DNA of 64,000 nt. Source: Selaginella moellendorffii. Its lineage: Eukaryota; Plantae; Lycopodiophyta. A model generated the notes under the pieces. That model was given only the letters and a program-made list of their open reading frames with translations. It ran no database searches and had not been told where the DNA came from. A program made the position numbers and the translations under genes. Position 1 is the first letter of the stretch. Every line of letters starts with the position of its first letter. The DNA is taken from positions 940,236 through 1,004,235 of the forward strand of contig NW_003314321.1 in the NCBI RefSeq assembly GCF_000143415.4, in the 5' to 3' direction. Below are positions 1 through 24,971 of this stretch, one piece after another.

Positions 1-1765
1 AGAAGAACAAGTACCCTTTGCCAAGAATTGAGGACCTGTTCGATAGGTTGAGAAAAACAAAATACTTCTCGAGGATTGACCTCAGGTCAGGATACTACCA
101 GATCAGGGTAGCAGAGGAAGATATCGAGAAGACAACCTGTCGAACCAGGTATAGGAGCTTTGAGTTTCTAGTGATGCCCTTTGGGCTATGCAATGCGCCG
201 GCAATGTTTTCGGCGTTGATGAACCATATCTTTGTACCCTATCTGGATCACTTTGTGGTCATCTATATCGACGACATCTTGATCTATAGCGAGATGCTAG
301 AGGAGCATGCCGAACACTTGGTGAAGGTGTTTGAGAAACTAAGGGAACACAAACTATATGCTAAAGAGAGCAAATGTGACTTTGTTCAACAAGAGGTAAA
401 GTTTCTCGGGCATGTGGTGGGCCAGGAGGGGCTCAAGGTGGACCCGGAGAAGGTCCAAGCGATCCAGGAATAGGAGTGACCATCGAATGTACATGAGTTG
501 AGGGCATTCTTGGGGCTATGCAACTACTACCAAAAGTTTATCAGACACTATTCGAGAGTAGCCCTGCCCTTAACGGACCAAATAGGAAAAGAGAAGATGG
601 TATGGACAGCAGAATGCGAGGCGGCATTCGTCCACCTCAAAGGGAAGTTGAGGAAGGCTCCCGTGTTTGCATTACCAGACTTTGGTAAGGACTTTGAGGT
701 AGAAACAGATGCTTTGGACTTTGCATTGGGCGCAGTTTTGAAGCAAGACAACCATCCAATAGCGTTCTTCTCGAAAAAGTTGGACAAGGCTCAAAGGAAG
801 TGGCTTGCCCACGAGAAGGAACTGTTTGCGGTGGTCAAGGCGCTCAAGGAGTGGTGACACTACCTTGGGAGACACTTCAAGATTTACACGGACAATGTGG
901 CAACGAAACACTTCTTGTCACAGCCCGACTTGAGAGGGAAACAGGGTCGGTGGGCCAATGCCTTGGCCGAGTTTGATTGTGAGATTTTGTACAAGCCTGG
1001 GAAGAGCAACATCGTGGTAGATGCGCTGAGTCGAAAAGCGAGCTTGAAGTTGGCGATATCTAGTGCGACAGCAACCTTTTAGGACGATGTGCGGACAGCA
1101 TATGAGAACAATAGTCTAGCACAAGAAGTGTTGCTAAGGAATCTAGAGGCACGGGAAGCTCACCAAAGAGGTGAGCTGCCAACGGAAGAGAAAATGGGCT
1201 ATGCGGAACACAACGGACTCATCTATTACAAGCAAACGAGGGTGTATGTTCCAGAAGGGGAATTAAGGAAGGTAGCCTTAGAAGAGTGTCATGACGGACC
1301 TCGGCAGAGTGCCCAAGATGATAGGCTTACTCAAGAGGAAGTACCATTGGCCAGATATGGCTAAGGACGTCCAAGACTATGTAAAGACATGTCCAACATG
1401 TCAGCAGGTCAAAGCCGTGACTAAGGCTAGTAGGGGCTTGTTGCAAAGCATCCCAATTCCAGATCGTCCGTGGAAATGTCTTACGATGGACTTTATCACG
1501 GGACTCCCCCCAAGCGAGGGGTTTGATGTGATATTCGTGGTGGTGGACCAATTTTCGAAAATGGCACATTTCATACCCACCATAATGGAAGTGGATGCGG
1601 AAGGTGTGGCGAAGCTGTTCTTTGAACAAGTGGTTCGAGTGCGGGGAAGGCCGGAGGAAATCATTTCAGATCGAGATAAGATCTTCACTAGTAGGTTTTG
1701 GAGGACTCTCCTGGAACAGTATCGCACCAAGTTGAAATTCAGCACAGCCTATCACCCACAGACAG

Positions 1766-1812
1766 GTATTGGGTATTAAGTCAAGTTTGATGGCACTAAC
1801 ACTTCTTGACAG
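1766..1812 (+). other. Putative 47-nt GT-AG intron within the integrase catalytic core
   Basis: CAGACAG|gtattg...cactaac...ttgacag|ACGGACAA. Removal joins ORFs 1291 and 1806 into the conserved HPQTDGQMERVN. Confidence 0.8.
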
Positions 1813-2230
1813 ACGGACAAATGGAAAGGGTGAATAGGCAGCTGGAGGATTATTTGCGATGCTATGTCTCAGGAGACCAGACTGATTGGGTAAGTCATTT
1901 GGGACTTGCGGAAATGTGTTATAACAACTCACCACATTCGAGTATCGGGGTGAGTCCATGGGAAGTCATCAATGGGCGAGCTATTGAAGGTCCTGTGGAG
2001 CTCGGCGTGGCTGAGTACCATGGAGAGTTACCCGTAGTGGAGGCATTCACGGCGGAAAGACTCAGCATTTGGAATCTAGTGAGGGATTCCTTGGAACAGG
2101 CTCAACAAAGGCAAACCAAATACGTGAACCAGAAGCGTCGGGATATAGAGTTCTAAGTTGGGGAGAAGGTGTGGTTGAACACCAAGAACCTGAGGCTACC
2201 AAATGGGATCAGCCGGAAGCTGACCCAAAG

Positions 2231-2282
2231 GTAAAAATGCATGTATTCCTAGAAATGAACTGATCTTGAGTTCCTTAAGCAG
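2231..2282 (+). other. Putative 52-nt GT-AG intron in the integrase C-terminal GPY/F module
   Basis: CAAAG|gtaaaa...ctgat...aagcag|GTTC. Removal gives KLTQRFAGPYEVEARIGKVAYRL and restores the frame into the chromodomain. Confidence 0.8.
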
Positions 2283-2640
2283 GTTCGCGGGGCCTTACGA
2301 AGTTGAGGCACGAATCGGTAAAGTGGCTTACCGTCTTTGACTTCCTTGAGAGATGGGGAAGATGCATCCAGTGTTCCACGTGAACTTACTCAAGCCGTAC
2401 TTTGAGGATCCGCTTTGCAAGGACCAAGTGAGACCTTTACCTGAGGTTATCCAAGGGGAAGAGGAATACGAAGTTTAGGCCATCCTCAATGCGCGCAAGA
2501 GCAAGAGACAAGGACGCGAGGTGAGAGAGTTCCATGTGAAGTGGAAAGGATTTCCACACTGTGAAGCAACATGGGAACCGGAGGAGAACCTAGTGAATGT
2601 GTGAAATCTAGTGGAGGAATTTCTGCAAGGCAGAACTCTA

Positions 2641-3537
2641 TGTACTTATGCAAAGTTCAATTAAAATATCAATTTGCAAAGTTGAACAAGTGGCATATAT
2701 TGGGACCCAAAGGCGCACCGAAGGTAAGCTAATTAGCATGGGTTAGCTAGGTCGACCAGGTGTAGGGCACTACGCCCGACTCCCCGCGGGGATGTCGAAT
2801 CCATAGACGTATTTTACGGGGGGTTCCAAAAGTATAGTAGGGATAGTGAGGTCTAGGAACCAATCTTAAAGGAACTCTCCAGTGGTGCTTCCAAACTGAC
2901 TTGAGGTTGAGACTGGGGCCGAGGGGCATTGGGTGGGAGTGAGCATGGGCTTGGGTGGTGCCGGAGGGGCCACCCAAGGAAGTGCTCAAGAGCAGCTCCC
3001 ATTCCCGATAGGAAAACCGACTGCAGTGCTCCTGGTGGTGCCCCACTTGAGTACCTTTTGGCTCATTGGTCCTCGCCCTTCCTAGGGGCTTGGGCCTTCC
3101 TTTCGGGATGGAAGTGGGGGGGTAGAAGTACCCATACCGGGCCGTTAGGACACGGTGTTTCGCCCCGATGTCCCGAAGCAAGTGTTGCATTCAAGGCTTA
3201 GGATTTAGAGGGTCCCATGATCAAGTTTTGTTGTACCAAAGGGTGTTAGAAATTTGGAGGCTTGGTGCGCTTGGCTGCTTGTGTCTGTGGGGAGTGTAGC
3301 CGAACCTTAAGTCCAGTCTAACCTGGGGAGGGGGATTGGGAGGGATTTAAGAATCTGTGGATGGAAGGCTAACGCTTCGTTGCTCGTGCAGTGAGTAGCT
3401 GAAACCAAGTAGGAGTAAGTAGGAGCTGGTACAATAGGCAAGAACCTTGGCGAGGGAACTTAGCACAAGCCAAGGCAGTGTTGGTCAGATAGACGAGGTA
3501 AGCTGGCAAATTGAAAAGGAAAAATTTGTGGCTTACA
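2641..3537 (+). repeat. LTR-like repeat (left boundary uncertain)
   Basis: Ends ...aaatttgtggcttaCA at the point where the adjacent gypsy copy is cut. Homologous to 24271-24971 and carries the shared GGGTTCCAAAAGTATAGTAGGG motif. Confidence 0.6.
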
Positions 3538-4907
3538 ACCACTTGATTGAGGAGGAAGTATTCAATAGCAGTTGCAAAGGCACTAGCAAGAGCACCAACT
3601 TCCACCTAACGAGCCAAGTAGTCAAAAGCAATAATAACATACTCATTGCCAGCAATCGACCGTGGAAAAGGTCTCATAAGATCAAACGCCACCAACTCAA
3701 ACAAAAGGGAAACTGCAATTGATTCCAATCATCCTTCCACGGCACGAGGGGGAGTATTATGAGTTTGGCACTAAACGCAATTACGCATATACTGGATAAT
3801 ATCATATCATATCTCTAGCCAATAAAAAGACCTGTGCAGCTTCTTGGTTACACGACGATGTCTCTTATGCCCACCTAGAACAAGAGAATCATGGTAAGCA
3901 CGGAGAAATTGCCGAATAAAGACAAAAGGCACCACCAGCTGTAAATGATCATCAGGATCCATCCCCACAAAATAAAGAAGGTTGTCTTCAAGGCAATATT
4001 GAGAATGTAAATGCTGGAAAGGTAAGTTATCAGCAAGTAATGCAAGATTCTTAAACCCATCTCTAAACTTTTGAATCCACGGTTCAACCTTTTGAGCCTC
4101 GCAAACCTCATCAAGAGAAGGTAAATCTTGTTTTGCGCTTCGTGGACATTGAATGTCAAGTACAACAACTGCCAATGGCATAGAATCCTCGTCTAGAAAA
4201 TCCACAGATGCTAGAACAACAGGCTCGTCAGAAACATAAAAAGAGAGTGAAAAAGGAAGAGGAGCTCGAGAAAGGGCATTAGCATCAGCCATAGAACTCC
4301 CTGGGCGATGAACAACATCAAAATTATATATCTGAAGCTTTAAAGCCCACCGAGTAGTATGACCAACTAAGTTCTTTCGCTTCAATAATGAAGTAATGGT
4401 AGCATAGTCACCCTCAAGTAACATCCGAGAACCATGTAGATATGCATGAAGTTCCTCAAAACCCCAGACTGCTGCTAAACACTCATTATCTATCGTAGAG
4501 TAGTTCACCTTCGCTGGTTGTAATATATGGCTTATATACACAATGGGATGGCACTGACCAGGCACACTCGGGCTCTGTTGCATCAACACACCTCTAAAAC
4601 CAATATCAAAAGCATTCACGCGCAAAATAAAAGGTTGAGTGTAGTTAGGATATGCTCAAATCGGAAGAGTTGTCAATAGCTCTTTGAGATCCACAAACGC
4701 CCACTCACAATCTGGAGACCAAATGAAAGATAACATTGACAACTTTAGTAACGCTCACAACGATGTAGTGTAATCAGAAAGATGATCCACAAACAACCAA
4801 GATACTGCACCTTGCCCAAAAAGCACTGCACATCATTCACACACTTCGGAGTAGGGAACTTTAGAATAGCCATAAGTTTGTCATGATCAACTTGCAAACC
4901 TTCACGA

Positions 4908-5578
4908 TATAATGCACCTTATCTCTCTCCCCTCAAGCTAACTGGAAAAAGGGGCAATTGTTTGATGAGAAAGCTCTTAATGGCTATTTTATCCCCATTT
5001 ATCCCCCAAGGTTCCAAGGATCCATGGTGACAGTATATCCAAATCTCATCCTATGATCACATGTGCTATACTCACCCCCCCTTTAAAAATGTCAATGTCT
5101 TCATTGACTATTGACTAACAACCCCTATTGAGCCAAGGGGAACCAACACTTCCATTTCCGCACTGAATATACCAATCCTTCCATTGTGTAGACCAGCTAT
5201 TCCATGTGAGGCAACTAGTCATCCACCCGTACCACAGTTCCACGGTGGATACCTTCGTTCGTGGATACTCCACACAAGAGGAAAGACGTACACATGCCCA
5301 ATACGTACGATTTCAAATTTAGGGGTAGGAATATACCTTGCTCAAGGGTATATTATATTTTTAAGTAGCCATTAATAAATGGGAATCGAACCCGTGCCAT
5401 TTGCTCTGATACCAACTGTAGCGCACCTTATCTCTCTCCCCTTAAGCCAACTGGAAAAGGGGCAATTGCTTGATGAGAGAGCCTTTAGTGGCTATTTTAT
5501 CCCCATTTATCCCCTAATGTTCCAAGGATCTACGGTGACAGTATATCCAAATCTCATTCTATGATCACATGTGCTACA
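4908..5578 (-). mobile_element. TRIM (terminal-repeat retrotransposon in miniature)
   Basis: Direct repeats 4908-5070 and 5417-5578 (~162 bp). PBS TGGTATCAGAGC (tRNA-iMet) is the reverse of 5403-5414; PPT is the reverse of 5071-5081. Imperfect 4-bp TSD acga/acaa inside the host RT gene. Confidence 0.92.
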
Positions 5579-6257
5579 ACAAGAAATACAATACTCAAGA
5601 TAAGTTATGTCCTTGGATCCAAATACGCACTTTGACTACTTCAGCTTTAAACCAACGTCCCATAGCCGATCCAACACTTTACAAACATCATGAATGTGCT
5701 CCTCCCACGTCCCCTTTAAGTGGATCAATACATCATTAATGAAGTCAGTAGTCACCTTCAGCATATCGCAAAGAACCTCGTCCATCATCTACTATAAAGT
5801 TGCTGGAGCATTGTTTAAACCAAATGGTATCACCAAGAACTTGTACAAACCAAATGATGTACGAAAAGCAGTTTAGGAATATCTTCTTTAGCCATCGGCA
5901 CTTGCCAGTACCCAAAAGCAAGATCTAGCTTGGTGAACCAACGACTTCGCCCTAAACGTTCCAAAAGATCAGCAGTGTGAGGAAGAGGGTACACATCCGG
6001 GATCGTCATTTCATTTAATGGATGATAGTCGATGCAGAAATGAATACTCCCATCAGGCTTCATTACAAAATGAGGTTCACATGCCCAAGGACTCTGTGAT
6101 TTCCGAATAACACCCTTCTTCAACATCTCCTTGACGTTTGCACGTAAAATCTTGATTTCTTTGGGTGACCGACAACGAACAAGAACCTTGGTTGGACGAG
6201 CATCCCCAGTTGGAATCAGATGACATGTGGCAATCTTGGCCCCAAATGATAAGTCAA

Positions 6258-9200
6258 TGTCGCAAATGTGACTTCGGGTATCGAAAGTTACCTATCGGCC
6301 AGTCCTTACAGACATTCTTTCCTTACTGCCACGATGGCAGAAAGTCGGTATTGCTAGACCCTTTATCAGTCCCTCTTGTGCTAGTGGAGTTAACTGGGCA
6401 TTTCGAGTGTACTTAGACCGGACGAGTATAAGGACGGAATTCTTACGTGTTATTAGCTAAGCATACTTAGCCCGGTAAGGAGTTCCCGTCTCGTTTTATT
6501 TTGCACTTGCTAGTGATAAGAATCCTCGCGTATTGAGATTAGTCCCTCAATATCACTAGATGATAGCTTATCGTGTCTAACAAACACCCTCGCTATCATG
6601 CCCTTTATGTTAGTCTCATTTCGGTCTTAAATGCTATTTATGGAAAGTGTCTAGATTTGCTCATTTGGCATATCTACGGAATGTAAAGATTGGCCTGAAC
6701 ACAATGGTGTTCGTTCCATGTCCAAATTCACATTCTAGCACCATTCAATATTTAGTAAGTTTCGAGCTTGTCCTAGAGACTAACTCCTGATACTAAGGGA
6801 GGCTTGGGGTGAAAGCCCAAAGCGTGTGTTCCTCAAGGGGGGAGGGTGGGGGGTGGGGGGGATATAGAGGGTTCCAAATGTATAGTAGGGATAGTGGGTA
6901 GGTCGGGCATGGCTGACCAACCTGAGGCATAGTCTAGCTCTCGCTTGCATGTTTGTCCTTGTTCTACATCCGGTTTGGGTCTAAGCCCAAGTTCCATTCC
7001 ATGCTAGCTAGTGGAGTACCCAGCAGGAGCCCAGCGACAGAGATAGGTGCCCATGAGCTCCAGGGTATGTGGAAGGGTAGAGGCGGCCACTGCCCAGCAG
7101 CGACAAGGACAAGGATCGCTCATATGTTTTTCTTTTGCAGGGCCGCATGACTGTATGTAATTTAGCATCCGTTGGCAGCTCGACCAGGACAGGCTCAGCA
7201 GACCAAGCCCAACACAAGCTGTACATCTCTGTGCTCTTCTTTCTCCCTCGACACAGCAAGGAATGCATGCATTCTTACTGGAATTCCACGGTTTCTTGGT
7301 TTTTTCTGGGGCCTCACAAAAAACTCTAGTGGACAGGAAGAATCGACTCAAGACCCATCTCACTCTGCTGATGAAAGCTGCAGCTCTTGACACTAGAGTC
7401 GCTTTTTGGAAGTGGTGACATCCGAGTGAGCTCAAGAGCTCTGCTGTACGGCTACCTTTTCTATGAGCCTGCGCTGTGGAAGTTCCTGTGCACAACAAGT
7501 AGTGACTTTCGAGGCACTGCATATGGAGACTCAACTGTGAACTCTAGGCACTGGAAAGGCTGGTGGATGGACGTGGAAGGATTTCAAGCTTTTGTGTCGG
7601 CTCCAGAGCACACGACGAGCAAGTGGTACATCGTTCCAAAGATGGAGTGGCTTTCTCCGATGGTGATCCGTGAAGACGAGGAGAGCTTTCTCCACGGCGT
7701 GATCAGCAGCAATGGACTGGTGGATATGGCTGCCAAAGTCACTGAGGAAGTGAGCAGGATGGACAGGGATAGGATGAGACGCTTCATGGTGACAGAGATT
7801 TGTCGGCAAAGCGATGAGTGTCACTGTATTTGGAGTGAGAGAAGAAGGGGTTTTATCGTCGAGGATTCCTGGCCAGATACCAAAGCTTACAGTCTTCACA
7901 GCTTTGTTATGTCTTGGGGTCTATGAAGGAAATCTGCTACTCCATCCATGCGATGTTCACAAGAGCTTGGAAGATTTCTGATGCTTGGAGATGATCACGA
8001 GCTTCGAAGTTTTCTTTTTGCTGCTGGATGATTCGAACTTCTATTTTTACAGTTTGAGCAGCAAAGTTTTTGATCTTTGGGAAAGATTCCACTCGCTGAA
8101 ACGCACTGAAAAAGTCCTCATTATAATGTAACGTGAGCTGGATCGCCAGCGAGGCTCCATGTTCCCACCATTTATACTGGGACTAGGGTTTTCTCCTTCT
8201 GGGCCGACACCCCGACGGGATGATCCTCCATTCGAGTTCACAAATCTGAATGTTGGTTTTTGCATGTTGGTTCTGGCAATGGGATGCCGGTTGCTCTAGG
8301 ACTGTTCTAAGTCACTCCGGGCTCCTGTCCCTTCGCTCCTTGGGCTGTGTGCTCAGGAGTTGCTTCGTGGTCTGGTTCTGCCTCCATGCTTGGGAGTTTG
8401 GCACTGTTCCTTCATTCAGTGGCCCAAGGCCCTGAACCTCAGGTTCCGCACCACTGTCATTTGGACACGTGGCATATGACATGTGGCATGTGTCACATGG
8501 TATAAAGATGGTTTAGGTTCCGCTTCGTGGTGCTATCCTATGGTAAATCACTATAGGATAAAGGGTAAAAACCACGTGCGCTACATTTGGTATTAGAGAA
8601 TGAGTCTCAGCGAGTATTATTCAATGAGATTGGGCAACTAGTCTCGTTGCATACGCAGAGATGAAAACGATGATCCAAATGGGTACACGTTTGGGTGTTA
8701 AAACTTCGCAATTGTTCCTTGGGTATGGATTTGGTTACCTTTTTGTACCATAATAATGTGAGTTTGCTCTTGGGCTCATAGGATGGATTTGAGGTGTACC
8801 ATTTACATGAGTTTTCACTTGGGCTCGTGAGTGAGGCACATTAACAACTCAAAGTTATACTTTGAATTGGCAGGATTAATGTAAGCCTATCGATGGTCTA
8901 GTGGTTCCGTAAGTTGTTCCATGTACCATGGGTGAAAGCGAACCTCCCTGGGTTTGCTATGAGTGGCAAATAGGCTGGTTCGTAGCTGTTTAGCACGGCA
9001 CTAGTGGATCCTTCCTAGGCATGATTACAAGTGAATCAATCAAGATTGTAGGGATTAGTCTATTGATTCAAGTAGTTATTGCCGTGCTCTCTCATAAACT
9101 TTTCTTGGATTGGACTGAAGGCAGTGCGAAAGCATGTTTGAGGTTTAGTCAAAAGATAAGACTGAAAAGGGAGTTGTTAGGGACGAAGGATTAAACACGT

Positions 9201-12200
9201 AAATCATTTTCTCTTGGAGAGATGATTTGCAACGAGGTGTTGACTCATTGCTCATGTTCACAATATGCAATCAAGAGTCCCTACCTTAATGCATGTTGGT
9301 TATGGTGGTCTTATAAGTGGTGAGTTGTGGGATGGATAGCAATGAAGCACTATACTATTTTGTCTAGGCATGCTATTGGAAGACTTGGGTTATAATGCTC
9401 AATTTTTTTCTGGGGAACTTTGCTATTGCTCCTTGAATAGTTTGGTGTTGGATTAGTTTGAGTTTGATCGGAAAGAGAGTGGCATGAGTTTATCCGTATT
9501 GTGAACAAAAGTTAGTGGTGTTAGGTGTTGTAAGTCTCTATTGGTGGAGTGTGGCATTTATGTTGCATTTTGTCGAGTTGAGTTGACACTTGATACTCAC
9601 ATAAACTTTTGTAGTAATGACAAGTGCATTGCTCATGGTGGCTCAATTGATGATCAAGTCATTGTGATTTTATATCATATCCATGTGATAATGAGCAATG
9701 TGTTTACGAAGTTGCTTGGGTAAATGATGATCACCCAAAGTGGTTGATGGTGAAGCTAGTTTACTTGCACATAGTAGCATTATAATAGCTTTGACTGGAT
9801 TCTCAATGGTGGTCCATTATGCTAAGTTTAAGTTGGTACCTTGTTTCCTTAAGTTTGCCCATTAAGGTGTTGGAAAGGGTTATAGCATTTACTTACTATA
9901 GCTTGTTGGTTGATCTGTTAGCACTTGAAGTAGATTGTTGGATGGAGAAAATATGTAGTTCGGGCATTGACATCACTAATACTTGTGTTAGTGGAAGTGG
10001 CATTGTTAATTCGAGTGATGAGGAATTTTCCTTAGACCTTGATTTTCTATGTCATTTTTTTTGTTAATGTTTTGGCTTCATATTAGATCTTGAAGGTGAT
10101 TGAAAAAAGAGTGTTAGTGCAATGTGGATATCCGATGATCAAGTCTTCGTGATTAAGCCTTGGGTGTTCACTTTGCATTTTTGTGGATGTCAATGTTAGA
10201 TGTCAGTTATATGGGCAAAAATGTTTGATGCTTAAGCATGCTATTAGGTCATAAGAATCTATGTTGAGGTGAGCCTATGTGAAGTTGTTGGTAAGAGGAA
10301 GTTGGTTGAGTCTTAAAAGTTTGTATTCCTAGACTAAGAGTCATTCTTTCTCTAGGATGGAAATTTTTCACAAATTTTCTTAAACTTTTCCAATGGCTAA
10401 TCTGTTGATCACTTTTCTCGAAAACCATTCCATTTTCGTAAGTTGGTACAAACTAGTGAAGGGGTTAGAGTTAACTTCACTTAAACCTTAGTAGATAGTT
10501 TGTATGATGCGACCCGAAAGGGATGCTAACTTTTGGGGCTAAGGCAATTGAGTTGGATAGAGTTTGGAGTTCGTATAAAAAGTGGCCGTTGCACTTTTCT
10601 AAGAAAGGTGACCCTTGTGCCTTTCTTTTGTAGAGTTGTGTTTGGTGGCAGATTGTACCTTGCATTTCACTTAAACTTTATGAGAGTAGTGAGCTCTCAC
10701 TGATCTTGACTTAGTCTTGGTGGCCCTGCGCCTTGGCTGAGGATGGTGATGTCCAACTTAGTTGTTTGAGTTGAGATGTTGGTACCCATACTATAACTTT
10801 GTCTATGAGGAGGTTGTGTACCATATGAGTCCATCTCATGGTCTTCACTTTAATTTTGACTGAGTGTTGATCACATAGCTAGCCTCTTCAAAGCATGCTC
10901 AAAGCTAGTAGCTAAATGTTTTAGTGAGTTTATTGCAGTTGAGTTGGATTCGAGTGGTCATTTAGTTTGTGCTTGTCTATGAACTTTTATCTTGTACCTA
11001 GGGTATCATGTTCATGTTGGACAAGTATATAACTTGATGACAAGAGTTGGTGTTTGGGTCTTGTGAAGGCAAGTTGAGGAGTGATTGTTAGTTGCTTTGC
11101 AACTAGTAATTACTTGTAGACTTCGTCAAGGACTGTTGACACTTGCTTTGCTCGATGATGATTTAGCAGTGATGGGCTTACTTTATCGGATGGTGTTGTA
11201 GAGGATCGTGTCGTTAGACTTACATGAGTTTTTTCATGTTGGCATGTCGACTTTACCTCTGTCAATATCATTTGGTTACATTTAGTCCGTAGTGTTGGAT
11301 TTCATTGAGTCTTGGACGTGGTGAATCACTCCTTGATGAAGTGTTATCTGTAACTAAGTTTTGCTGAAGGATTAGTCTTAGATACTGACTAAAGTATCTT
11401 CAACTTTGGTTAGCTTAGTTGCTAGAGAGCTCTGAGTGGTGATTCACTCTTGCTTTCTTCTAATTTTGTTATAGTGTTGATGGCATTGAAATGATACCTT
11501 GTCGTTGATATTGTTGATATTGAGATTCGAGTGAAATGAGATATCCTTCCAAGGATTGATATTGAGTTTCATTAGTCTTGATGAAAATAGTGTTGATGAT
11601 TTGGCTTTAGATTTGTGTTGTTTGCATTCATATATTTGCTAGTTAGCAACAGCATTGATGTTCAAATGAACTGAGTGGCAAGTTTGAGTTAATTGTATTC
11701 TAGACGAGCTTATTTAGTAGGGGTTGAGCGTTGGTTTTTCCTTGAAAAGTGATTTAGTCTTGGACAATGCTACCTCTATGAGAGGAAGAGTTAGTGATTG
11801 GTATTGAAGTGATTGAATCCTTGTTAGACTTCAGTTTGAATATATCGATTATTGATGATTCCTCTTGTGCTTGTTACGATGTGAGTTACGTTTTGTTATA
11901 GATGGATTCATGGAGGGTCGTTTGATGATCACTTGTTGAGTATAACTTTGTTGTGTTTGGCTTTTGGAGTGATGCAAATATGCTCTTCATTAGCTTTGGC
12001 ATTATGAAGTTTGGCTTATGGATGTGTTGAGGAAGATATTATGGGTCGCATCATGATTTCTTTTTTAGTATTGAAGTTAGCTTCTATGAGACTTGTGATC
12101 ATTATTAGGCAAGACTTAACTATAGGCTACTTCGAACTTTTGGTTCTTTGAGTTTATTATGCTCATTGTTCCATTTGTTAGAAGTTGTTGAGGGAAGGCA

Positions 12201-14731
12201 TTTTGGCTCCTAGCTTCGATATTGAAATTAGTATTTGCATCTAGCAATCATTAGTGATGATTAACTATGATCTAGGATAATTGATTATCCTGTCGAAGGT
12301 TTTGCTTGATTATCGTTAATCTAGAAGGATTTGCTATTCTTCGGGATGGTGGATTCCTTCTTAGACGATGATTTTGCATTTCTTTATTGATGGGATGATT
12401 GATGATTTTTTATGATGGTTAGTTATTCTCTTTGATAGCTTATAGCTTTTCGCAATACCACATATTCTTTGTGGTTTGCTTTGGATTGGTCTATTGGGTT
12501 TGAGACATTAGTAGGATGTTGCTAAGACTTGCTTAAGCAACTAGAGTTCCTTTGTATTGTTGGCCGGGATCTATTTAAATTGGCTAGTGTGATGGTTAGC
12601 ATGAATGCTATGTTTGTTAGTCTTGCCACATTCATTTTGTTCTGTTGATTATTACTCGAGTTAGTTTTGATAGATTAGGATGTTATTTCTTTCGGGTGAT
12701 ACATTCACAAGCATTGTGCTTGTTAGTCAATGATACTTTGTGTTCTTTGAGTTGTGTTTTGTGAGTTGTTTGGCATGCTATCTGCCATTTTTAGTAGTTA
12801 AATTTCATCATTGAGTTTCCTTGATAATCTACTTGCTATTGAATTTTGTTGGATGATGATTCTTATGTTTACCAATTATGATGATCTTGGTAGTTCCTAT
12901 ACTCAACTACTAGTTTATCGGATGATAACTTACTTGGAATACTTTTGTGTTCTAATCTAAGTTTTATTTATTGATAATTAAATCTTTAAGATATCATTGT
13001 CTATGACTTTGATATTGTCCATTTATTGATCTTTGAGTTTGGGCCAGTATAGGCAGACTGGCTTTGGCACTTCGGGTGCATGGTGAAATCTCTAGTCATG
13101 GGGTAGCTACTGTCGACTGGTCACATAACTCACCTCTTTGTTGATGTTCCTTATTTGTTAAAAGGGCATGACTGTGTAAACAACTTTAACTGCCTGTTTA
13201 CAGTAGTCTATCTAAACCTTACCGACATGTTTGGTTTCTTTGCTCAGGAGGGTTGGGGCCTCTAGCTTTTCTCTCTATGTCCCTGCGGGCAGGGGCGTAT
13301 CACACTTTTGTAAGCTAGGTGACTCCCAGAGCAGCAAGGGTGGTTGACTCCGTTGGTCATTTCCTTGTCGGCGACGGCCGGAAGGTGTCTAAGCTGGTAG
13401 TGCATCCGCGTTAGACAAAAAGGTTGCCTCCTAACTCATTTAAGTCGGTGCATTTCTCACATAGTGTGAATACTGTGAATTTTTTCTAGAGTTGTTTCCT
13501 TAGCGGTATTCTAGACTCGAGTATGTATTGACGAAGATGTCGATCTTCCCTAGGGGGGGAGAGTGTCGCAAATGTGACTTCGGGTATCGAAAGTTACTTG
13601 TCAGTCAGTCCTTACGGACACTCTTTCCTTATTGCCACGATGGCAGAATGTCGGTATTGCTAGACCCTTTATTAGTCCCTCTTGTGCTAGTGGAGTTAAC
13701 TGGGAATTTCGAGTGTACTTAAACCGGACGAGCATAAGGATGGAATTTCTACATGTTATTAGCTAAGCATACTTAGCCCGGTAAGGAGTTCCCATCTTGT
13801 TTTGTATTGCACTTGCTAGTGCCAAGAACCCTTATGTATTGGGATTAGTTCCTCAATATTGCTGGATGATAGCTTACCGTGTCTGCCAAACACCCTCGCT
13901 ATCATGCCCTTTATGTTAGTCTCATCCGGTCCCAAATGCTATTTATGGAAAGTGTCTAGATTTGCTCATTTGGCATATCTATGGAATGTAGAGATCGGCC
14001 TGAACACAATGGTGTTCGTCCCGTGTCCAAATTCGCATTCTAGTGCCATTCTATATTTAATAAGTTTCAAGCTTGTCCCAGAGACTAACTCCTGATACTA
14101 AGGGAGGCTTGGGGTGAAAGCCCAAAATGTGTGTTCCTCAGGGGGGGTGCGGGGGGGGGGAGCGCTATGGGGGGGTTCCAAATGTATAGTAGGGATAGTG
14201 GGTAGGTCGGGTATGGCCGACCAACCTAAGGCATAGTCTAGCTCTCGCTTGCGTGCTTGTCCTTGTTCTGCGTCTGGTTTGGGTCTAACCCTAAGTTCCA
14301 TTCTATGCTAATTGGTGGAGCACCTATGTCCTTGCGTTAGGCCACCAGTATGCCGAAATAGCGCTAGGCTCTGTTTGGCTCTGTTTGGCTCCGTTTTGCG
14401 TGTTGGTCCTGGCAATGGGATGCCGGTTGCTCTAGGACTATTCCAAGTCGCTCTGGGCTCCTGTCCCTTCACTCCTTGGGCTGTGTGCTCGAGAGTTGCT
14501 TTATGGTCCGATTCCATCACTCCTTGGCTCCATGCTTGGGAGTTTGGCACTGTTCCTTTGTTTAGTGGCCCAAGGCCCTGAACCTCGGGTTCTGCACCAT
14601 TGTCATTTGGACATGTGGCATATGACATGTGGTATGTGTCACATGGCATAAAGATGGTTTAGGTTCCGCTTTGTGGTGTTATCCTATGGTAAATCACCAT
14701 AGGATAAAGGGTAAAAACTACATATGCAATA
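6258..14731 (+). mobile_element. Non-autonomous, LARD-like LTR retrotransposon (8.5 kb)
   Basis: 5' LTR 6258-8585; 3' LTR 13564-14731; PBS TGGTATTAGAG at 8588; PPT AGGGGGGGAGAG at 13552-13563. Exact 5-bp TSD GTCAA, and the empty site is visible in copy 2 near 28166. The T/G-rich interior has no long ORFs. Confidence 0.92.
7140..7926 (+). pseudogene. Captured DUF1853-like (putative PD-(D/E)XK nuclease) gene relic inside the 5' LTR
   Basis: Motif order FLGPH, DRKNRLKTHLTL, LLYGYLFYE, WKGWW, WYIVPKMEWLSP, ERRRGFIVEDSWP matches my recollection of DUF1853. Frameshifts near 7325 and 7387. Confidence 0.6.
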
Positions 14732-17700
14732 GTCAAATTCAAAGAAATCAGAATACTCCTTCATGAGCTGGTCAACTGCTGCAACACAAAGATTGTCAGA
14801 GGGATCAAAAAAGGGAAGAGCAGACCAAGATGGAAAAATAGGAGGAAATATTGGGGGGGGGGGGGGGGGGCGACAAAAGTAATGAAAGCAGAGGTGGAAG
14901 TAAAAGGACAAAAAGGTACGGAAGTGAGAGAAATGGATGAAACATAAGAAAGTATGAGATAAAGGGGAAAAGCCTCAAAGTTACACTTGGTATAATTGTG
15001 CTGCAACCAATCCATACCAAGGATGAGGTCAAAAACTTGACTCAACACCACCCGCAATGACTATAACTCAAGCTCAAGATCACCCATACGCACAATCAGG
15101 TCTGCCTCATCCCATGCACATGCATGTGTACGGCTGTTGCCATAAAAAATAAAAACTGGTTCCGCCATATGACGCAAGTGTAGATGGCAATGTGTGGCAA
15201 CAAGTTGAGCAATAGAAGATAAACTTGAACTTGTATCAACCAACACGGAGAGAATAATATGAGACCTCTTGTTATAAAAATGAGCTTGGAAAGTAAATAC
15301 TAGATGAACTGATGCTGAGTGAACCACTTGATGATACTCCCGAAAAAAAGATAGAGGGGTCACTGATTTATTTGCGCAAGGCCCCTCCATTACTTGCATG
15401 ACTCCTCGTTTCCCAAATGCATCTCGGTATCCAGACCTTTCACTACAGCAACACCAATAGAATGTTGTTGATGCCAAGGTCTCCACCCAGGAAATGGTGG
15501 CCGCCAATCTGGAAAATGCTAACAACGCCAATAAGTGTGACCAACTTCATCACATGCTCAGCAACGAACATCACAGCCACGACCATAGCCTTTCCTTTGT
15601 CTTTGAACTCGAGCAATAGCAGTTGGAACAACCTCCATTGGAATAGGACCATCACCCATAGAAAGTGGAGCTGAAGGACAGGCAGCGAGAAGTGGAAGAG
15701 ACAATGTCTCATAACATTGTGCCAAGCGAAGAGCATCATCAAGGGTGGCAGGAGCAAGTGCATGGATAAGTCTGAAAAAATCTTGAAGAAGTGCTGGCCA
15801 CAACATTCCTAGTTTGATCCGCTCTGACATATTAAGCTCCACACGAAGAAAAAGACTTCGGAAATGAATGCCAAATTGCATCACCAACTTAGATAGCCTC
15901 TAGCAAAGACAATGCAATTGTTAGAAGGCATCATCACAATCGTTGACATGTCCAAATGTATGTTTGAAGATGTCCGGGAGAACACTCCAATCCCCACGAG
16001 TGGCTGCACTCAAACTATTGTACCACTGCAATGCTGTCTCTTGGAGACACGTGGAAAACTCACGCAAATGTCGAACATCATCCCAAGAATGATATGTGGC
16101 AATCACCATGAAGTGATCGAACCAATGGTACACATCATCCCGAGGATTCCTGCAAAAGAACTCCAGCTGAACGCAAGGATTGACACCAAGAGCAGGAGGA
16201 GTTGTACCACATGCCGTGAACACTGCCATCAATTGAGTTTGGTTGTTCAATTGCAAGCACATAACATCAAGCAATTGTACCAATTGCTGCTCCAGAGTCA
16301 AAGAATGAGATTGCTGATTTACCATGAAGATGAACGAAAAAGAAAGAGCAAAAGAAAAGAAATGACAAAAAGCTAGAAGGAAATGGAAATCTAGACAATG
16401 CAAAAAGTTAGATCTAAACCAAAATCCTAAATCCAAACACTCCTCAGAGATAATGAAAGGTGCCTCTTACCTCCACCAATGTGAGTGTTTGGAATATAGA
16501 AAGGGAATATAGAAAATATGCATATCAATTAGCCCAAAAACCTTAGTTTATAAACAAGAGTGGAGAGGTCTGAATTGAAATCAATCCAATGGCTATCAAA
16601 ATCCCATTACGCTAATATTAGTATATGGCATTATAGCTGTACATTTAGCCTTCACAACACTAAATAACATTTTAACATTTTAACATTTTACATATAAGTC
16701 TACACAATTGAATTATTAATTTTTACCTTTTAATTGATTTAATTAATTAACATTGTTATAGTATAATTGGCTTTTTCTTTTATAATCTTTTTATATTTGA
16801 GTTCTTTACAGTGTTTTATGAGTATGAAGGCTTTTATAAAAATAATTTATTGACTTGAAAGGCATTATCATAGTTGCAATTATGTTTTCACCTCTTCAAC
16901 TAGCTTTTTTTATAAAATAGGATTATAGGCTACAATAGCAAAAATTTTAATAAATGATTAAAATTTTAAAATTTTATTAATGAAAATCAACTATTTGGTA
17001 AAATTTTGCAATTACTTTTTATTTTAAAAATAAATTTAAACACCACAAAAATAAATTTAAAAAGTATTTAAAATATTCTTGGATAAAACTTATATGCTAA
17101 GTTTAAATTACTTTTTATAATCACTTTTCATATGTGTAATTGCACTAAAAATGTTTTTAAAGATTTTCTAAAAATATAAATTATCTTTTTTAATATTTTT
17201 TATATGCTTGTTTTATTATTGGTATTGCTAAATTATATACATCTTTAAAAAAACTTTTGTGATTAAATATATATTTAGATTTTGAGTTATGGTGTACTTT
17301 ACTTTATTCAACTTAACATTTAATAATAATAATTTATTAATATTTTAATGTTTTAATTTTGAGATTACACAACAACAATTTATATAATACAAGAAATATG
17401 GTTGGGATTGAAATTGTAGCATTCACATACTTTAAATTTAAATTTTTGTATGTAGTGACTGCCTCGTTATTATTAATGACAATAAAGGGTTGGTAAATTA
17501 AATATTAAATTTTTTTTAAATTTTTTTTAAAGGTTAGAAATCCCACTAAAATAGATTATTCTGGATGTTTATACTTCATAGTTTTTTTGTGTTATTAGTT
17601 ATTGAAATCATTCATAAGTTTTAATTTTTTAATTTTTCTAATTTTTAGTTTATAATTTTTTTTAAAATGTGAATTTTAATGTACTATTTTTAGAAAAAAA

Positions 17701-19203: not shown

Positions 19204-20097
19204 TTATTTTATACAATTGACATGGTTATAAGTATTTGTTGCCCACCAAATTTTATTTGGTCTTTTCACTTCATAAGAAACTAGATTGCAATCATTTTGT
19301 AAAGTTAAAAATGTTATAGATAAACATTTAATGCAATATTTATTAATAGACCACATAATAGTATTGTTTTCAGAATATAATACTATATTGCCATCTGTTT
19401 GAAGAGTAAAAACACAATGTCCAAAATAATCATATTTACTTCCTTTCCTCCATAATAAATATTTTCCAGAATATAAAGAAACTTTACAATTTGACTCAAC
19501 CAGTAAAATATTTTTACCATTTGGAGATCTTATAAATTGGTTTGTATAAAGTAAATTATTTTTAAATCCAATTTTTAAAGATGTTTTACTCATATCACAA
19601 TTATTAGTACTATGTAATGAATAGGTATTATCTTTATTTTTATATCTGTTGTGATTATATTTAAAAACTATACTATATTCAAGTTGATAAAGTGTAGAAA
19701 TTATTTGACATTCATTAGAACGTGCTTTAATTAAAGCATTTTTATATGAATTAAGTATTCTTCTAAATGCTGCTCTTAATGAATTACCATGGATTGTATC
19801 TATATTATTTGAAAATGGACTTGATTCACAATAAGGTGGGTTACCTTCCATTCTAGAAAAAGTCACAACTGCATAACCTGTAGAACCTAAATTAACCACA
19901 TATAAATCTTCATAATTTACTGGATAACTTGTATTTATTGTATGAATTTTACTTAATAAATTATTAAATCCATGATTAATAATCATTCCTATTTCTTGCT
20001 CTGACAAGGAATTATTTTTCCCCCAGTAAACTTCAGGCATTCCATAAACAATAGAAAAATAAAATATAATTATTGTTGAGTTTATAAATTTAATCAT
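19204..20097 (-). CDS. Secreted protein with unknown N-terminal domain and C-terminal bulb-type (GNA/B) mannose-binding lectin domain
   Basis: Intact intronless 297-aa ORF with a hydrophobic N-terminus. QxDxNxVxY sites LQTDGNIVLY and LQNDCNLVSY, plus SPNG and WATNT motifs. Confidence 0.8.
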   Translation of the reverse strand: MIKFINSTIIIFYFSIVYGMPEVYWGKNNSLSEQEIGMIINHGFNNLLSKIHTINTSYPVNYEDLYVVNLGSTGYAVVTFSRMEGNPPYCESSPFSNNIDTIHGNSLRAAFRRILNSYKNALIKARSNECQIISTLYQLEYSIVFKYNHNRYKNKDNTYSLHSTNNCDMSKTSLKIGFKNNLLYTNQFIRSPNGKNILLVESNCKVSLYSGKYLLWRKGSKYDYFGHCVFTLQTDGNIVLYSENNTIMWSINKYCIKCLSITFLTLQNDCNLVSYEVKRPNKIWWATNTYNHVNCIK

Positions 20098-20223: not shown

Positions 20224-23200
20224 TATAAGACACAAATCCCTAATCCCCAAAGTGGAGTAGAAAGGGTGCCATATGGTAGTGGTCGAAGAAGAAGTCCAAC
20301 AAACGTAACGTGTTCAGACCTAAGGCTCTAACTTGAAAAGTTGAAAATAAGAGTGGAACTCCAAACGAAGTGCTCAAGAGATGAGTATGAAACAATTGGT
20401 GAATGAATCTCTAAAAAGGGACACAAAAAAGATTGACACATAGCAAGTATTGTGACACATGAAAGTGTCAAGAACGAGTCCAAAAAGGAGTCTAAGATGG
20501 AGTCCGATATAAACTTGAGATAGAGTACAAGATGGACCCAAGATAGACCCAAGATGGATCCGAGATAGAGTCTGAGATGAAGTCTGAGATGGATCCAAGA
20601 TGGGTTCAAGATAGATCTGAGATGAAGTCTGAGATGGAATCTGATATAGACCCGAGATGGAGTTCGAGATGAGTTCAAGATGGAGTCCGAGATAGACATA
20701 AATGTAAATGACTAAATTTTCTATTTTACTTTAGTCATTTAACCACATCTTCAACCACTTGGAAGGGTTTCATTTATAACCTTCATAAGTCTTATTCCGG
20801 ATTTAGGGACTTGCTAGCCCCATGAATGGCATTTATGCCATTTAACTTTTGCATTTGGTCTAAGTGCTCCACATGTTCGATCCTTTAACTGACACCCAAA
20901 GATACCATTGACATATTAGTCTGTTATGTTAAAGCCATGCCTATTCATCCTTGTCACATTAGTAGTCCAAGACCACCTACATCACAGTCCCGTCTCTCGA
21001 AGACTGGGCCATTTGTCCATGAGTGGTCATCCCTTGACCACACCTTAGGATGTTTGAAGATATAAGGAACACCCTTCCTTAATATCCCTTTCTCCAACCC
21101 CACCAAATCCCTTTCCATACACAACCGTACTTGCTAACACCACCACTCCTAAAGGCCCGACCACTAAGTCTCATTGACTTTTGGGACTTCCTTACCATGT
21201 GATAGCATCCTTGGTCACTATACCAAAGCACTATTCTTCTTCCTGTTCATAGTTTAGGACTTTAAAATGATATTTTGGAACTCCATAGCCTTACGCAAGC
21301 CTCATAGGTATTCTCCCCACCTTTTGCCTTTGGGTGCCCTAGCTATGGGGTTAGAGTGAGGTTCTGTTGAGCCACAGTAGATATCCAAATAGGTAGTGCT
21401 ACCCACACTTGGACTAGGAGTATTGACCATTCAATCTCTCGAGGGAGGTAGAGCTGGCTTTTGAACACTTCACCAAGCTACCCTGCTTGTCTATCTGTAT
21501 TCACTCGAGTTTTGGATTTTTTAATGGATATATCATCACCCAACACATAGGTATAACCTTCCTTAATCACATTGGCATTTCTTGGCCAAATTGGCTCCAC
21601 TAAAGTTCTACCCCTACTATACTTTTGGAGCTCACCAAACCCCTCAAAGTCTGGAAGACAATTGCTTTAAGCTTTCACTCTTGGACTCAGACTTGGACTT
21701 GAACTTGGACTTGGACTCAAACTCAGTTTTGGACTCGGTCTTAGTCTCGGTCTTGGTCTTGGCCTTGGTCTCGACCTCAGATTCCATCTCAGGTCTATTT
21801 CGGACTCCATCTCAAGTCCATCTCAGACTCCATATCGGGTCCATCTCGGACTCCATCTCAAGTCTATATCGAGTCCATCTCAGATCTATATTGGACTCCA
21901 TCTCGGACTGCATCTTAGGTCTATATTAGGTCCATCTTGGATCCATATCGAACTCCATTTCAGACTCCATCTCTTTACTCCTTCTTGGCCTTGTTTCCGA
22001 CACTTCGATGTGTCACAACACTTACTATATGTCAGTCCTTCTTGTGTCTTTTTTTAGAAATTCATTCATTGATTGCTTCGTGCTCATCCCTTGAGCACTT
22101 CATTCGGAGTTCCACTCCCACTCTCGACTTTCCAAGTCAAAGCCTTTGGTCCAAATATGTTACACTTATTAGACTTCCACTTTGACCACTACCATGTGGC
22201 ACTCTTTTTTCTCCACTTTATGGCTTAGGGATTTGTATCTCACACCATAGAGTTCAAGATGGACCTGAAATGGAGTCTAAGATGGAGTTTGAGATGGACC
22301 CCCGATGGAATCTGACGTCGAGACTGAGAAAGAGACCAAGACCGAGACCAAGATTGAGATCGAGACTGAGACTAAGATCGAGGCCAAGTTTGAGACCGAC
22401 ATTGAGTCAGAGTTTAAGTCTAAGTCCGAGTCTAATTCTAAGTCCAAGTCCAAAGGTGAAAGCCCAAAGCAATCATTTCCCAGACCTTAGGGGGTTTGGT
22501 GAGCTCTAAAAGTATAGCAAGAGGAGGACTCTAGTGGAGCTAATTTGGGCTAGTTTGGCCAAGAAAGGCTAGTATGACAAAGGAAGGCTAAACTCACATG
22601 GTGGGTGAGGTTATAACCACTGAGGATTCTAAGGCTAGAGTGAACATAGTAAGACAAATTGGGTAATTTGGTGAAGTGTTCAAGAGCCGGCTCTAGCTCC
22701 TCTGGGAGATCAAATAGTCGATGCTCCCAATCCAAGTGTGGGTGGCACTACCTACTTAGATACTTGGTATGGCTCATCGGAACTTCACTCTAGCCTCATC
22801 GCTAAGGCACCTAAAGGCGGAAGGTGGGGAGAGTACCCACAAGGCTTATGTAGGGCCACAATGTTTTAGAATGTCATCCCAAAGTCCTACACTATAGAAA
22901 GAAAGAAGAACAATCCTCTTATATAGTGACTAAGGATATGGTCATATGGTAAAGAAGTTCTAAAGGTTAGTGGGACTTAGTGGTTGGGCATTCAAGCCCT
23001 AACCTAGGGGCAGTGTTAGTGAGTATAGTTGTGGATGAAAAGGGATTTGGTGGGGATTGAAGAAGGGAATTGGGGAAGGGTATTCCCTATATCCCTAGGC
23101 ATCCTAAGGGTGTTAAGGTGTGGTCAAAGGATAACCATTCATGGACAAGTGGTTTAGTCTTTGAAAGATAGGATTGTAATGTAGGTGTTCTTAGACCACC

Positions 23201-23458
23201 CATGTGACAAAGTTAAATGGGCATTGCCTTAGTGTAATGGGTTGATATGTCAATCGTACCTTTAGTTATCAGTTATGGGATCAAACATATGAAGCACTTG
23301 AACCAAGTGCAAAGGCTAAGTGGCATAAATGCCATTTTTGGGGCTAGCATGTCCCTAAGTCGGGAATAAGACTTATGGAAGTCATAAGTGAGATGCCTCC
23401 ATATGGTCAAAAGTTTGGTTAAGTGATTAAAGTAGAATGGAAAATTTAGTCACTTATA
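20224..23458 (+). mobile_element. Solo LTR (GAGATGGAGTCC-repeat family) interrupted by an inverted copy of the same family
   Basis: Termini tataagacacaaatcc ... aatttagtcacttata are deaminated versions of TGTGAGACAC...CGCTTACA. TSD ttaca/ctaca. Homologous to 32061-33862. Confidence 0.8.
20703..22244 (-). mobile_element. Solo LTR of the same family, nested in inverted orientation
   Basis: Starts tgtaaatgactaaatttt, ends gatttgtatctcaca, and is collinear with 32061-33862. No clean TSD seen. Confidence 0.8.
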
Positions 23459-23769: not shown

Positions 23770-24971
23770 GATAAAATTGAGTCTAAGACCAAGTTCAAAA
23801 TCGAATCCAAGACCAACTTTAAATACTAATACAAATGATAGGGGGGGGGGGGGGGGGGGGGGGGGGGTTTTAAAAGGTTCCCAAAATTTTGTAAAAAAAG
23901 TAAGTCTTGGAAAAAATCCCCAAGGGGGGCTCCAAAATTAAAAAAGAATGGGAATGGGGGGTAAAAACTTTGGGGGGGGGGAAAAATGGGCTTTAAGGGG
24001 GGGAAAAAAACTTTTTTAAAAAAGGGTCCAATTCCCCCCCCCCAAAAAAAAAATAAACAAAAAGGCTCCCACCTAAAAAAAAATATGGCCTATTTAAAAA
24101 CCCTTGGGCCCCCCCCTTTCCCAGGGGGTTGGGCCTCCCCTTTGGAAGGGGGGGGGGGGGTAAAAAATTTNNNNNNNNNNNNNNNNNNNNNNNNNNNNNN
24201 NNNNNNNNNNNNNNNNNNNNNNNNNNNNNNNNNNNNNNNNNNNNNNNNNNNNNNNNNNNNNNNNNNNNNNTTGTAAAGGGTTCCAAAAGTATAGTAGAGA
24301 TAGTAAGTCTTGAAAGAATTCCCTAGTGGTGCTTCTAAATTGAATAAGGATTGGGATTGGGGGTTAGTAACTTTGGGTAGGAGTAAATATGGACTTAAAG
24401 GGTGCGAAATAAGCTTTTTAAAGAAGTGTTCAAATTCCCACTCTCGAAAGAGAAATTAACTATAATGCTTCTAACTTAAATAAAATTATGTCTTATTTAA
24501 ATACCATTGGTCCTCACCTTTTCCTAGGGGTTTGAGCTTCCCTTTAGGATGGAGGTGGGGAGTTAAGATATTTATATCGGGTTAGTAGGCCATGATATTT
24601 CCCTTAGGATTCTAAATTAAGAAATGCATCTAAGGCTTAAGATTTAAAGGGTCCTATGAATAAGTTTTATTGTACTATAGGATGGTAAGAATCTAGAGGT
24701 TTGGTGTATTTAGTTGCTTGTATCTCTAAGGAGTGTAATAAACCTTAAGTATAGTTTAACTTAGGGAGGGGGATTCAGAGAGAGTTTGAGGAATCCATGA
24801 CAAGCTGGTTAACACTTTATTGCTCATGCAATAAGTAGTTAAATATAAATAGAACTAAGCAAGACTTAGTATAATATACATGAATATTAGTAAAGGAACT
24901 TAATTAGAGTTATGGCAAATGTGTTTGGATAGACGGGGTAAATTAGCAAATTAAAAAATGAAAAACTTACA
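23770..24971 (+). repeat. Decayed LTR copy related to 2641-3537, spanning the assembly gap
   Basis: 24271-24971 aligns by eye with ~2820-3537, with many C>T/G>A changes, and ends ...cttaCA. Confidence 0.7.
24171..24270. other. Assembly gap (100 N) preceded by a low-quality read tail
   Basis: N run. 23842-24170 is poly-G followed by homopolymer-smeared sequence. Confidence 0.97.

What the first reader, a model, noticed from the sequence alone, without database searches (positions are those of the whole stretch)
1766..2282. Chromovirus retrotransposon whose integrase is split by two spliceosomal-type introns
Seen: insertions of 47 and 52 nt (1766-1812, 2231-2282). Both have GT...AG ends, CTRAY-like branch motifs and the same size as host introns in this window. 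Each shifts the frame, and precise removal restores conserved integrase motifs (HPQT-DGQxER; KLxxR-FxGPY). Established: the E of GQxER is the third residue of the D,D35E triad, and an element copied through RNA should lose introns unless unspliced RNA is the packaged template. Inference: unspliced genomic RNA would give a Pol ending at TAA 1777-1779 with a catalytically dead integrase. Singly and doubly spliced RNAs would give integrase without or with the chromodomain, i.e. a splicing-gated switch for integration and targeting. Plant retroelement introns I know of (e.g. Ogre) are not in the integrase. I cannot check the literature here.
Basis: partly seen in the sequence, partly recalled or inferred. 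Interest (0 to 1): 0.88.

Follow-up and report, generated by a model that had tools for sequence, protein, structure and literature searches.

The report
Retrotransposon with introns inside its integrase
A high-copy spikemoss jumping gene carries two tiny introns inside its integrase gene that stay in its genomic copies but are cut out precisely in likely-RNA assemblies, so it likely makes integrase from spliced RNA while copying itself from unspliced RNA.

Summary
Both insertions (1766-1812, 2231-2282) are GT-AG introns with branch motifs; removing them gives the exact D,D(35)E spacing. They are family-wide: 16,415 DNA contigs cover both at exon-like depth, and none of 18 visible joints (of 31) removes either. 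Contigs from runs guessed to be RNA show both exact splices, in three of four studies; one contig has both removed. Unspliced forms occur too. A host gene clusters with Selaginella moellendorffii proteins, and the layout matches SM1-Galahad (PMC3350952), whose split ORFs were described in 2012 but not read as introns; identity is untested by sequence. The proposed chromodomain on/off switch is unsupported: keeping intron 2 also cuts the SH3 (GPY/F) domain, and that isoform was not seen. Best reading: spliced RNA encodes the full integrase, unspliced RNA is copied (inferred; BARE1-like RNA pools). Introns are known in Ogre, BARE1 and EVD, but ten paper searches found none inside an integrase. 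This window copy is dead. No earlier scan finding covered this DNA.

The parts
3..473 (+). Reverse transcriptase part of pol (runs off the window's left end; gag and protease are not in the window); in-frame stops follow at 471 and 477 in this copy
   Evidence: Pfam RVT_1 E 2.8e-32; ORF list
480..1082 (+). RT thumb and RNase H part of pol, with stops at 855 and 1080 in this copy
   Evidence: Pfam RT_RNaseH_2 E 6e-27, RT_RNaseH
1282..1765 (+). Integrase exon A: zinc finger and core with the first two catalytic Asp, up to HPQT; this copy has a private frameshifting deletion near 1302
   Evidence: Pfam Integrase_H2C2 and rve; Ty3 integrase 7q5b E 2.1e-28; other copies are longer at 1301-1302
1766..1812 (+). 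Intron 1, 47 nt, GT..AG, phase 1, branch motif at 1796-1800, stop at 1777-1779; its last 5 letters repeat the 5 letters before it
   Evidence: joint 1760>1808, skip 47, GT..AG (cut +5) in X15 and X17; one raw RNA read in X21 inferred from depth bins
1813..2230 (+). Integrase exon B: catalytic Glu, rest of the core, linker and start of the SH3_Tf2-1 domain; stop at 2154 in this copy
2231..2282 (+). Intron 2, 52 nt, GT..AG, phase 2, inside the SH3_Tf2-1 (GPY/F) domain; stop at 2232-2234 if kept
   Evidence: joint 2228>2281, skip 52, GT..AG (cut +2) in X15 and X20
2283..2664 (+). Integrase exon C: GPY motif, rest of SH3, group I type chromodomain (about 2467-2630); stops at 2338, 2347, 2476, 2602 in this copy; ATG 2353 to terminal stop 2662 spans 309 bp
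   Evidence: Pfam SH3_Tf2-1 (E 0.008, weak) and Chromo (E 4.5e-12)
2665..3537 (+). 3' untranslated region and 3' LTR (start not determined), ending in CA at 3537, where the integrase of another gypsy element resumes
   Evidence: 69% match of 3064-3527 to a second LTR-like copy at 24505-24968 and shared end; 3538 onward matches 26349 onward

Best explanation
This is a dead copy of a high-copy Ty3/gypsy chromovirus family whose integrase gene is split by two short spliceosomal-type introns that the family's DNA copies keep and that contigs from likely-RNA runs lack precisely; the element likely translates its full integrase from doubly spliced RNA and reverse-transcribes unspliced RNA. Shown: the introns, their presence across the family's DNA contigs, both exact splice joints, one contig with both removed, and contigs that keep them. 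Follows from the D,D(35)E rule: RNA that keeps intron 1 cannot give an active integrase. Inferred: because new copies keep both introns, the packaged template is the unspliced RNA and integrase comes from a different RNA molecule; the likeliest sorting device is two RNA pools as in barley BARE1 (a capped, spliced translation pool that is not copied, and an unspliced pool that is packaged). A likely side effect, if gag-pol is one ORF as described for SM1-Galahad, is less integrase than Gag and RT.
For: DNA: run X1 lays 16,415 contigs on 1200-2760; summed depth in the four bins overlapping the introns averages 0.91 million against 0.86 million in the other 23 coding bins. Of 31 joints, 18 are visible (15 in table 5, 3 more in 5c); none matches an intron, while unrelated deletions at depth 115-292 were detected, three of them ending inside an intron. 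RNA-guess contigs: X15 has one 1083-nt contig over 1440-2621 with both introns out; X17 has intron 1 both out and in; X20 has intron 2 out; X19 keeps both; 3 of 4 studies show a splice. Raw RNA run X21: depth bins add up to one 150-nt read that skips 47 nt at intron 1. The family majority in X1 and the X15 contig differ from the window copy at 4 of its 5 internal stops in exons B and C (the fifth is not among the rows shown), so those stops look private. PMC3350952 (section 5) describes hundreds of SM1-Galahad copies whose consensus ORF ends without chromodomain and is followed by ORFs of 316 and 309 bp; the window gives 318 and 309 bp, and 1295-4+266 = 1557 aa against 1577 aa for the unsplit sister SM2-Galahad. 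Precedent for separate pools: PMC3735527 (abstract and passages).
Against: Packaging, RNA ends, capping and translation were not observed. Runs X15-X20 are only guessed to be RNA by the tool, and X1 may be the window's own sample. 13 of 31 DNA joints are hidden (each apparently weaker than depth 134, about the level of the rarest shown), so a rare intron-less copy is not excluded. Expression is low: 9 reads in about 12% of three RNA runs, no joint reached the listing threshold, and three reads run into intron 2. The X20 contig begins in 255 unrelated letters, so some splicing may occur in read-through transcripts. Codon-position test for selection on the downstream exons was inconclusive: 8 of 25 differences at third positions in exons B+C (p 0.63) against 8 of 11 in exon A (p 0.009), from 36 coding rows of the 40 shown out of 154; 6 of 7 shown places where expressed copies disagree are third positions, only 3 of them in B+C. 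No intact copy was seen here, and PMC3350952 found none.
Confidence: 0.62

Rival explanations
1. Passenger introns in a parasitic family: the element's own integrase is dispensable because an unsplit relative such as SM2-Galahad supplies it in trans, unspliced RNA is simply the commonest form, and the splicing seen is incidental.
For: An unsplit sister family with hundreds of copies and near-identical LTRs is described in the same species (PMC3350952); no intact SM1-Galahad copy was found there; no third-position excess in exons B+C among the rows shown; one spliced contig is chimeric; parasitism of BARE2 on BARE1 is a precedent (PMC3735527).
Against: Two separate insertions both have exact GT/AG ends, branch motifs and exact frame restoration; the stops in exons B and C look private to this copy; exon A, useless without exon B, shows a third-position excess; the observed splicing (3 of 4 studies) should still leave intron-less copies, and none was visible.
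Confidence: 0.2
2. One reading: regulated alternative splicing makes three useful products (no integrase, integrase without chromodomain, integrase with chromodomain) and so toggles targeting.
For: Spliced and unspliced forms of both introns coexist; PMC3350952 cites work in which Tf1 integrase without its chromodomain is more active and less specific.
Against: Keeping intron 2 stops translation inside the SH3_Tf2-1 domain, before GPY; no record with intron 1 out and intron 2 in was seen; the one singly spliced record spanning both sites is the reverse. The contigs are few and short, so absence is weak.
Confidence: 0.1
3. The copies multiplied as DNA (segmental duplication or carriage inside other elements), so the introns never passed through reverse transcription.
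For: The copy is nested in another element; TSDs could not be checked because the 5' end is outside the window and no genome is held.
Against: The element ends cleanly in CA inside another element's integrase; it has RT, RNase H, integrase and chromodomain in gypsy order; SM1-Galahad is described with LTRs, PBS and PPT.
Confidence: 0.06

Closest known systems
SM1-Galahad, Galadriel-clade chromovirus of Selaginella moellendorffii (PMC3350952; sections 5, 7, 17, passages and supplement search seen)
   Same: Same host species label for a window gene's cluster; high copy, most contigs 90-99% alike; main ORF ends in the integrase core; two short downstream ORFs, 309 bp with a group I chromodomain (exact) and 316 bp (318 here); altered chromo box.
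   Different: The paper reports the split ORFs but has 0 occurrences of 'intron' or 'splic' in its text and none of 'intron' in its supplement. It gives LTRs of 1076/1146 bp with G tracts of 11-25; this copy has at most 873 bp after the last stop and a longest G run of 7. No sequence was available to compare.
[quoted passage not shown]
   Same: An intron kept in genomic copies, spliced in a subset of transcripts, whose removal is needed for the full polyprotein.
   Different: One longer spacer (274 bp on average) between ORFs, gating RT and everything after it; here two host-sized introns inside one enzyme, one within the catalytic triad.
BARE1 of barley (PMC3735527; abstract and passages) and EVD of Arabidopsis (PMC5580714; passages), Ty1/copia
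   Same: Small introns in a plant LTR element; in BARE1 spliced RNA is not copied because translation and packaging use separate RNA pools.
   Different: There splicing makes a Gag-only RNA and unspliced RNA encodes the full polyprotein; here the logic is reversed and only spliced RNA can encode integrase. Separate pools are not shown here.
Penelope-like elements (PMC8557442; passages)
   Same: Retroelements that keep introns after retrotransposition, by an unknown route.
   Different: No LTR, integrase or particle; another mechanism.
Foamy virus pol mRNA (recalled, no call; also named in scan note e1-9795892)
   Same: Enzymes made from a spliced RNA that is distinct from the genome RNA.
   Different: A large splice removes gag; here about 100 nt in all are removed, so spliced RNA keeps every other part of the genome.

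Membership tests
Ty3/gypsy chromovirus | Domain order RT, RNase H, integrase | tested here: met
   Pfam hits in that order
Ty3/gypsy chromovirus | Chromodomain at the integrase C-terminus | tested here: met
   Pfam Chromo E 4.5e-12 at 2479-2601; joined to the core only after splicing
Ty3/gypsy chromovirus | D,D(35)E triad | tested here: met
   35 residues after removal of intron 1, as in 99 of 99 homologues scored
Ty3/gypsy chromovirus | Two LTRs, PBS, PPT, TSD | tested here: inconclusive
   3' end CA at 3537 shared with a second copy; no clear PPT or LTR start; 5' half outside the window, no genome held
Spliceosomal (U2-type) intron | GT..AG ends, branch motif, low GC, host-like size | tested here: met
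Spliceosomal (U2-type) intron | Exact removal in RNA, presence in DNA | tested here: met
   Both joints in contigs of runs guessed to be RNA, one inferred read in a run on record as RNA; none among 18 visible of 31 DNA joints
SM1-Galahad | Main ORF ending without chromodomain plus ORFs of 316 and 309 bp | tested here: met
   stop at 1777; 318 bp and 309 bp
SM1-Galahad | Host Selaginella moellendorffii, hundreds of copies about 95% alike | tested here: met
   window gene 55946-57451 clusters with S. moellendorffii proteins; 11,515 of 16,415 contigs 90-99% alike; copy number itself not measurable
SM1-Galahad | LTRs over 1 kb with G tracts of 11-25 | tested here: not met
   at most 873 bp between the last stop and the LTR end, longest G run 7; the paper notes many deleted copies, so I call it SM1-Galahad-like and do not file it as a member
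SM1-Galahad | At least 80% nucleotide identity to the family exemplar; Galadriel placement in an RT tree | not testable with these tools
   no sequence in the text or supplement seen; no hit above 54% (exon A) or 51% (exon B)
BARE1-type separate RNA pools | Capped spliced RNA translated but not copied; unspliced RNA packaged | not testable with these tools
   contigs show no RNA ends or caps
Introner (mobile intron) | Similar copies at unrelated sites, terminal inverted repeats | tested here: not met
   the two introns do not resemble each other or anything else in the window (best E 0.13); no inverted ends; only the window was searched

The most novel reading that the evidence does not exclude
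An LTR retrotransposon has separated its genome RNA from its messenger so completely that ordinary host-type introns have settled in the catalytic core of its integrase: the enzyme can come only from an RNA that is never copied, and the host spliceosome sets the transposition rate. With an unsplit sister family in the same genome, this would be a natural test case for intron gain in, and RNA sorting by, a retroelement.
Probability: 0.5. Interest if true: 0.87.

Novelty: new variant of a known kind. Interest (0 to 1): 0.74.

Why it matters
Loss of an intron is the classic proof that an element passes through RNA (recounted in PMC12786077), and that review lists only Ogre and EVD as plant exceptions. 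Here spliced and unspliced RNA differ by about 100 of some 7,000 nt, only the spliced one can encode the integrase, and only the unspliced form is visible among copies. That is genetic evidence that an LTR element tells genome RNA from messenger by its processing history or ends, the question that the BARE1 paper calls major, and it is testable with existing long-read data. It would also reinterpret a published family as possibly intact rather than broken, and warns that ORF-based annotation misses intron-bearing retrotransposons.

Tried and rejected
Own genome: none held, so copies, TSDs and gag could not be examined. Pattern for an intron at the same motif in metagenome contigs: 19 matches, 0 of 19 in an integrase; only one His codon variant was searched. 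Viral contigs: 1 locus at 45% identity, not examined further. Protein searches found no close family member: 1 hit, best 120 of 751 at most 54%, none, best 150 of 6626 at most 51%; 112 of those 150 have the intron-1 motif unbroken and the other 38 look like variants or decay, not introns. P0221, as long as SM2-Galahad, is a Centaurea protein. No RNA holder was on record among indexed runs. X23 laid no read. Ten paper searches found no report of introns in an LTR-retrotransposon integrase; the library lacks most subscription papers, Repbase and REXdb entries were not seen, and the Ogre primary paper was not held. PMC2864245, PMC6317226, PMC3059260, PMC3605345 and PMC12130899 were searched by term only and showed nothing on this; the supplements of PMC6317226 held as text had no hit. 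Scan look-ups by place, sequence and relatives were blank. The Atlas tool did not complete. Rejected: private insertions, assembly artefact, introner origin within the window.

Full report
What is there. The window opens inside the pol gene of a Ty3/gypsy element: RT (3-470), RNase H (480-1079), integrase zinc finger and core (1282-1764), a weak SH3_Tf2-1 match and a chromodomain. Two insertions, 1766-1812 (47 nt) and 2231-2282 (52 nt), begin GT, end AG, are about 12-15 points lower in GC than the exons and carry CTRAY motifs 17 and 23 nt from their ends. Four homologues aligned by tblastn change frame at these two places and at one private break near 1302. Removing intron 1 puts 35 residues between the second catalytic D and the E, the spacing in 99 of 99 homologues scored; the distance from that E to the KL motif is 130, within the 126-132 of most homologues. 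Of 425 GT..AG pairs in the region only 5 have all three signals, and all use these two acceptors. Host introns read by eye are 51-102 nt. The element ends in CA at 3537, inside another element's integrase. The copy is dead: stops at 471, 477, 855, 1080, 2154, 2338, 2347, 2476, 2602 and a frameshift.

Are the introns private? No. No genome is held, so I used sequencing runs. DNA run X1 lays 16,415 contigs on 1200-2760; summed depth over the intron bins equals that over exons (0.91 against 0.86 million; not a copy number). The tool found 31 joints; the 18 visible ones are scattered deletions at depth 115-292, none at an intron boundary, and three end inside an intron. The 13 hidden joints appear weaker, so a rare intron-less copy is possible, a large intron-less subfamily is not. 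X1 may be the window's own sample.

Are they spliced? Yes, on contig evidence. In four runs of four studies that the tool guesses to be RNA exactly two joints appear: skip 47, GT..AG, in X15 and X17, and skip 52, GT..AG, in X15 and X20, both at the predicted places once the short flanking repeats are allowed for. One X15 contig spans 1440-2621 with both introns out. X17 holds intron 1 in both states and intron 2 kept; X19 keeps both; X20 keeps intron 1, lacks intron 2 and is chimeric. In three runs on record as RNA (about 12% of each read) only 9 reads lay, no joint reached the listing threshold, but the minus-mate depth bins of X21 sum to one 150-nt read that skips 47 nt at intron 1, and three reads run into intron 2.

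What family? A gene elsewhere in the window clusters with Selaginella moellendorffii proteins. PMC3350952 (section 5) describes SM1-Galahad from that species: Galadriel clade, hundreds of copies, no intact copy, a consensus gag-pol ORF of 1295 aa that ends without chromodomain, then ORFs of 316 and 309 bp, the last with a group I chromodomain. The window gives 318 and 309 bp from ATG to stop, and splicing would give 1557 aa against 1577 aa for the unsplit sister SM2-Galahad. The paper never uses 'intron' or 'splic'. Against identity: its LTRs exceed 1 kb, while this copy leaves at most 873 bp, and no sequence could be compared. I put identity at about 0.75 and call the element SM1-Galahad-like. 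Relatives in the protein collections are at most about 54% identical and mostly read through the intron-1 motif unbroken, so the introns are likely a gain in this lineage (inference).

How it likely works. RNA that keeps intron 1 stops at 1777, before the catalytic E, so only spliced RNA can give an active integrase (established chemistry of D,D(35)E enzymes). Copies keep both introns, so the reverse-transcribed template is likely the unspliced RNA. The two RNAs differ by 99 nt, so something must sort them. BARE1 offers a tested precedent: a capped, partly spliced translation pool that cannot be copied and an unspliced pool found in particles, with no spliced copies in genomic DNA (PMC3735527). 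I commit to that model at 0.62; pools, packaging and translation were not observed. The main rival (0.2) is a parasitic family with passenger introns served by SM2-Galahad; my codon-position test did not settle it (8 of 25 third positions in exons B+C, 8 of 11 in exon A, on a biased 36 of 154 rows). Spread as DNA gets 0.06.

Compared with what is known. Ogre needs splicing for its full polyprotein, but its intron lies between ORFs (PMC6317226). BARE1 and EVD splice to make Gag only; the EVD study saw no conserved splicing in Arabidopsis Ty3/gypsy elements. Penelope-like elements keep introns by an unknown route. A 2025 review names only Ogre and EVD as plant exceptions. Ten searches found no introns inside an LTR-element integrase; subscription papers and repeat databases were not seen. 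The scan's own notes had nothing on this DNA; one search returned other kinds of spliced genes in fungal elements.

Verdict. Real, family-wide, spliced; a new variant of a known kind (intron-bearing LTR retrotransposons), in a family whose split ORFs were probably published without this reading. Interest 0.74.

Noticed in passing
window 6258-14724: A probably non-coding LTR element (LTRs of about 1160 bp with long G tracts, PBS-like site at about 8586, PPT at about 13552, about 5 kb G/T-rich interior without long ORFs) inserted in another gypsy element; its LTR shares a 31-nt motif with 2818-2848 and fits the LTR size published for SM1-Galahad better than this copy does.
   Followed up: partly
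window 7021-8257: An insertion of about 1.2 kb inside that element's 5' LTR carries a host-like gene fragment (7375-7923) with a DUF1853 match, E 4e-13.
   Followed up: partly
window 19207-20097 (-): An 891-nt open frame at only 24% GC with a hydrophobic N-terminus and a weak B_lectin match (E 2e-4, below cut-off); the exact sequence is not in the protein collection.
   Followed up: partly
window 25688-29805 (-) and 3538-6291 / 14731-16466 (-): Two copies of a second gypsy family; the copy at 25688-26341 reads through the motif that intron 1 splits, a same-genome control without the intron.
   Followed up: partly
window 20228-23456, 32060-33840, 37628-38295: Several copies of a repeat with long inverted arms and 11-12/23-nt tandem units; type not determined.
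   Followed up: no
window 1732 (run X20, record 16): A contig joins 255 unrelated letters to the element at 1732, keeps a 46-nt variant of intron 1 and lacks intron 2: probably a host or other-element transcript reading into a partial copy.
   Followed up: no
window 23840-24270: Low-complexity, poor-looking sequence next to the 100-N gap; a decayed LTR related to 2821-3537 follows the gap.
   Followed up: partly
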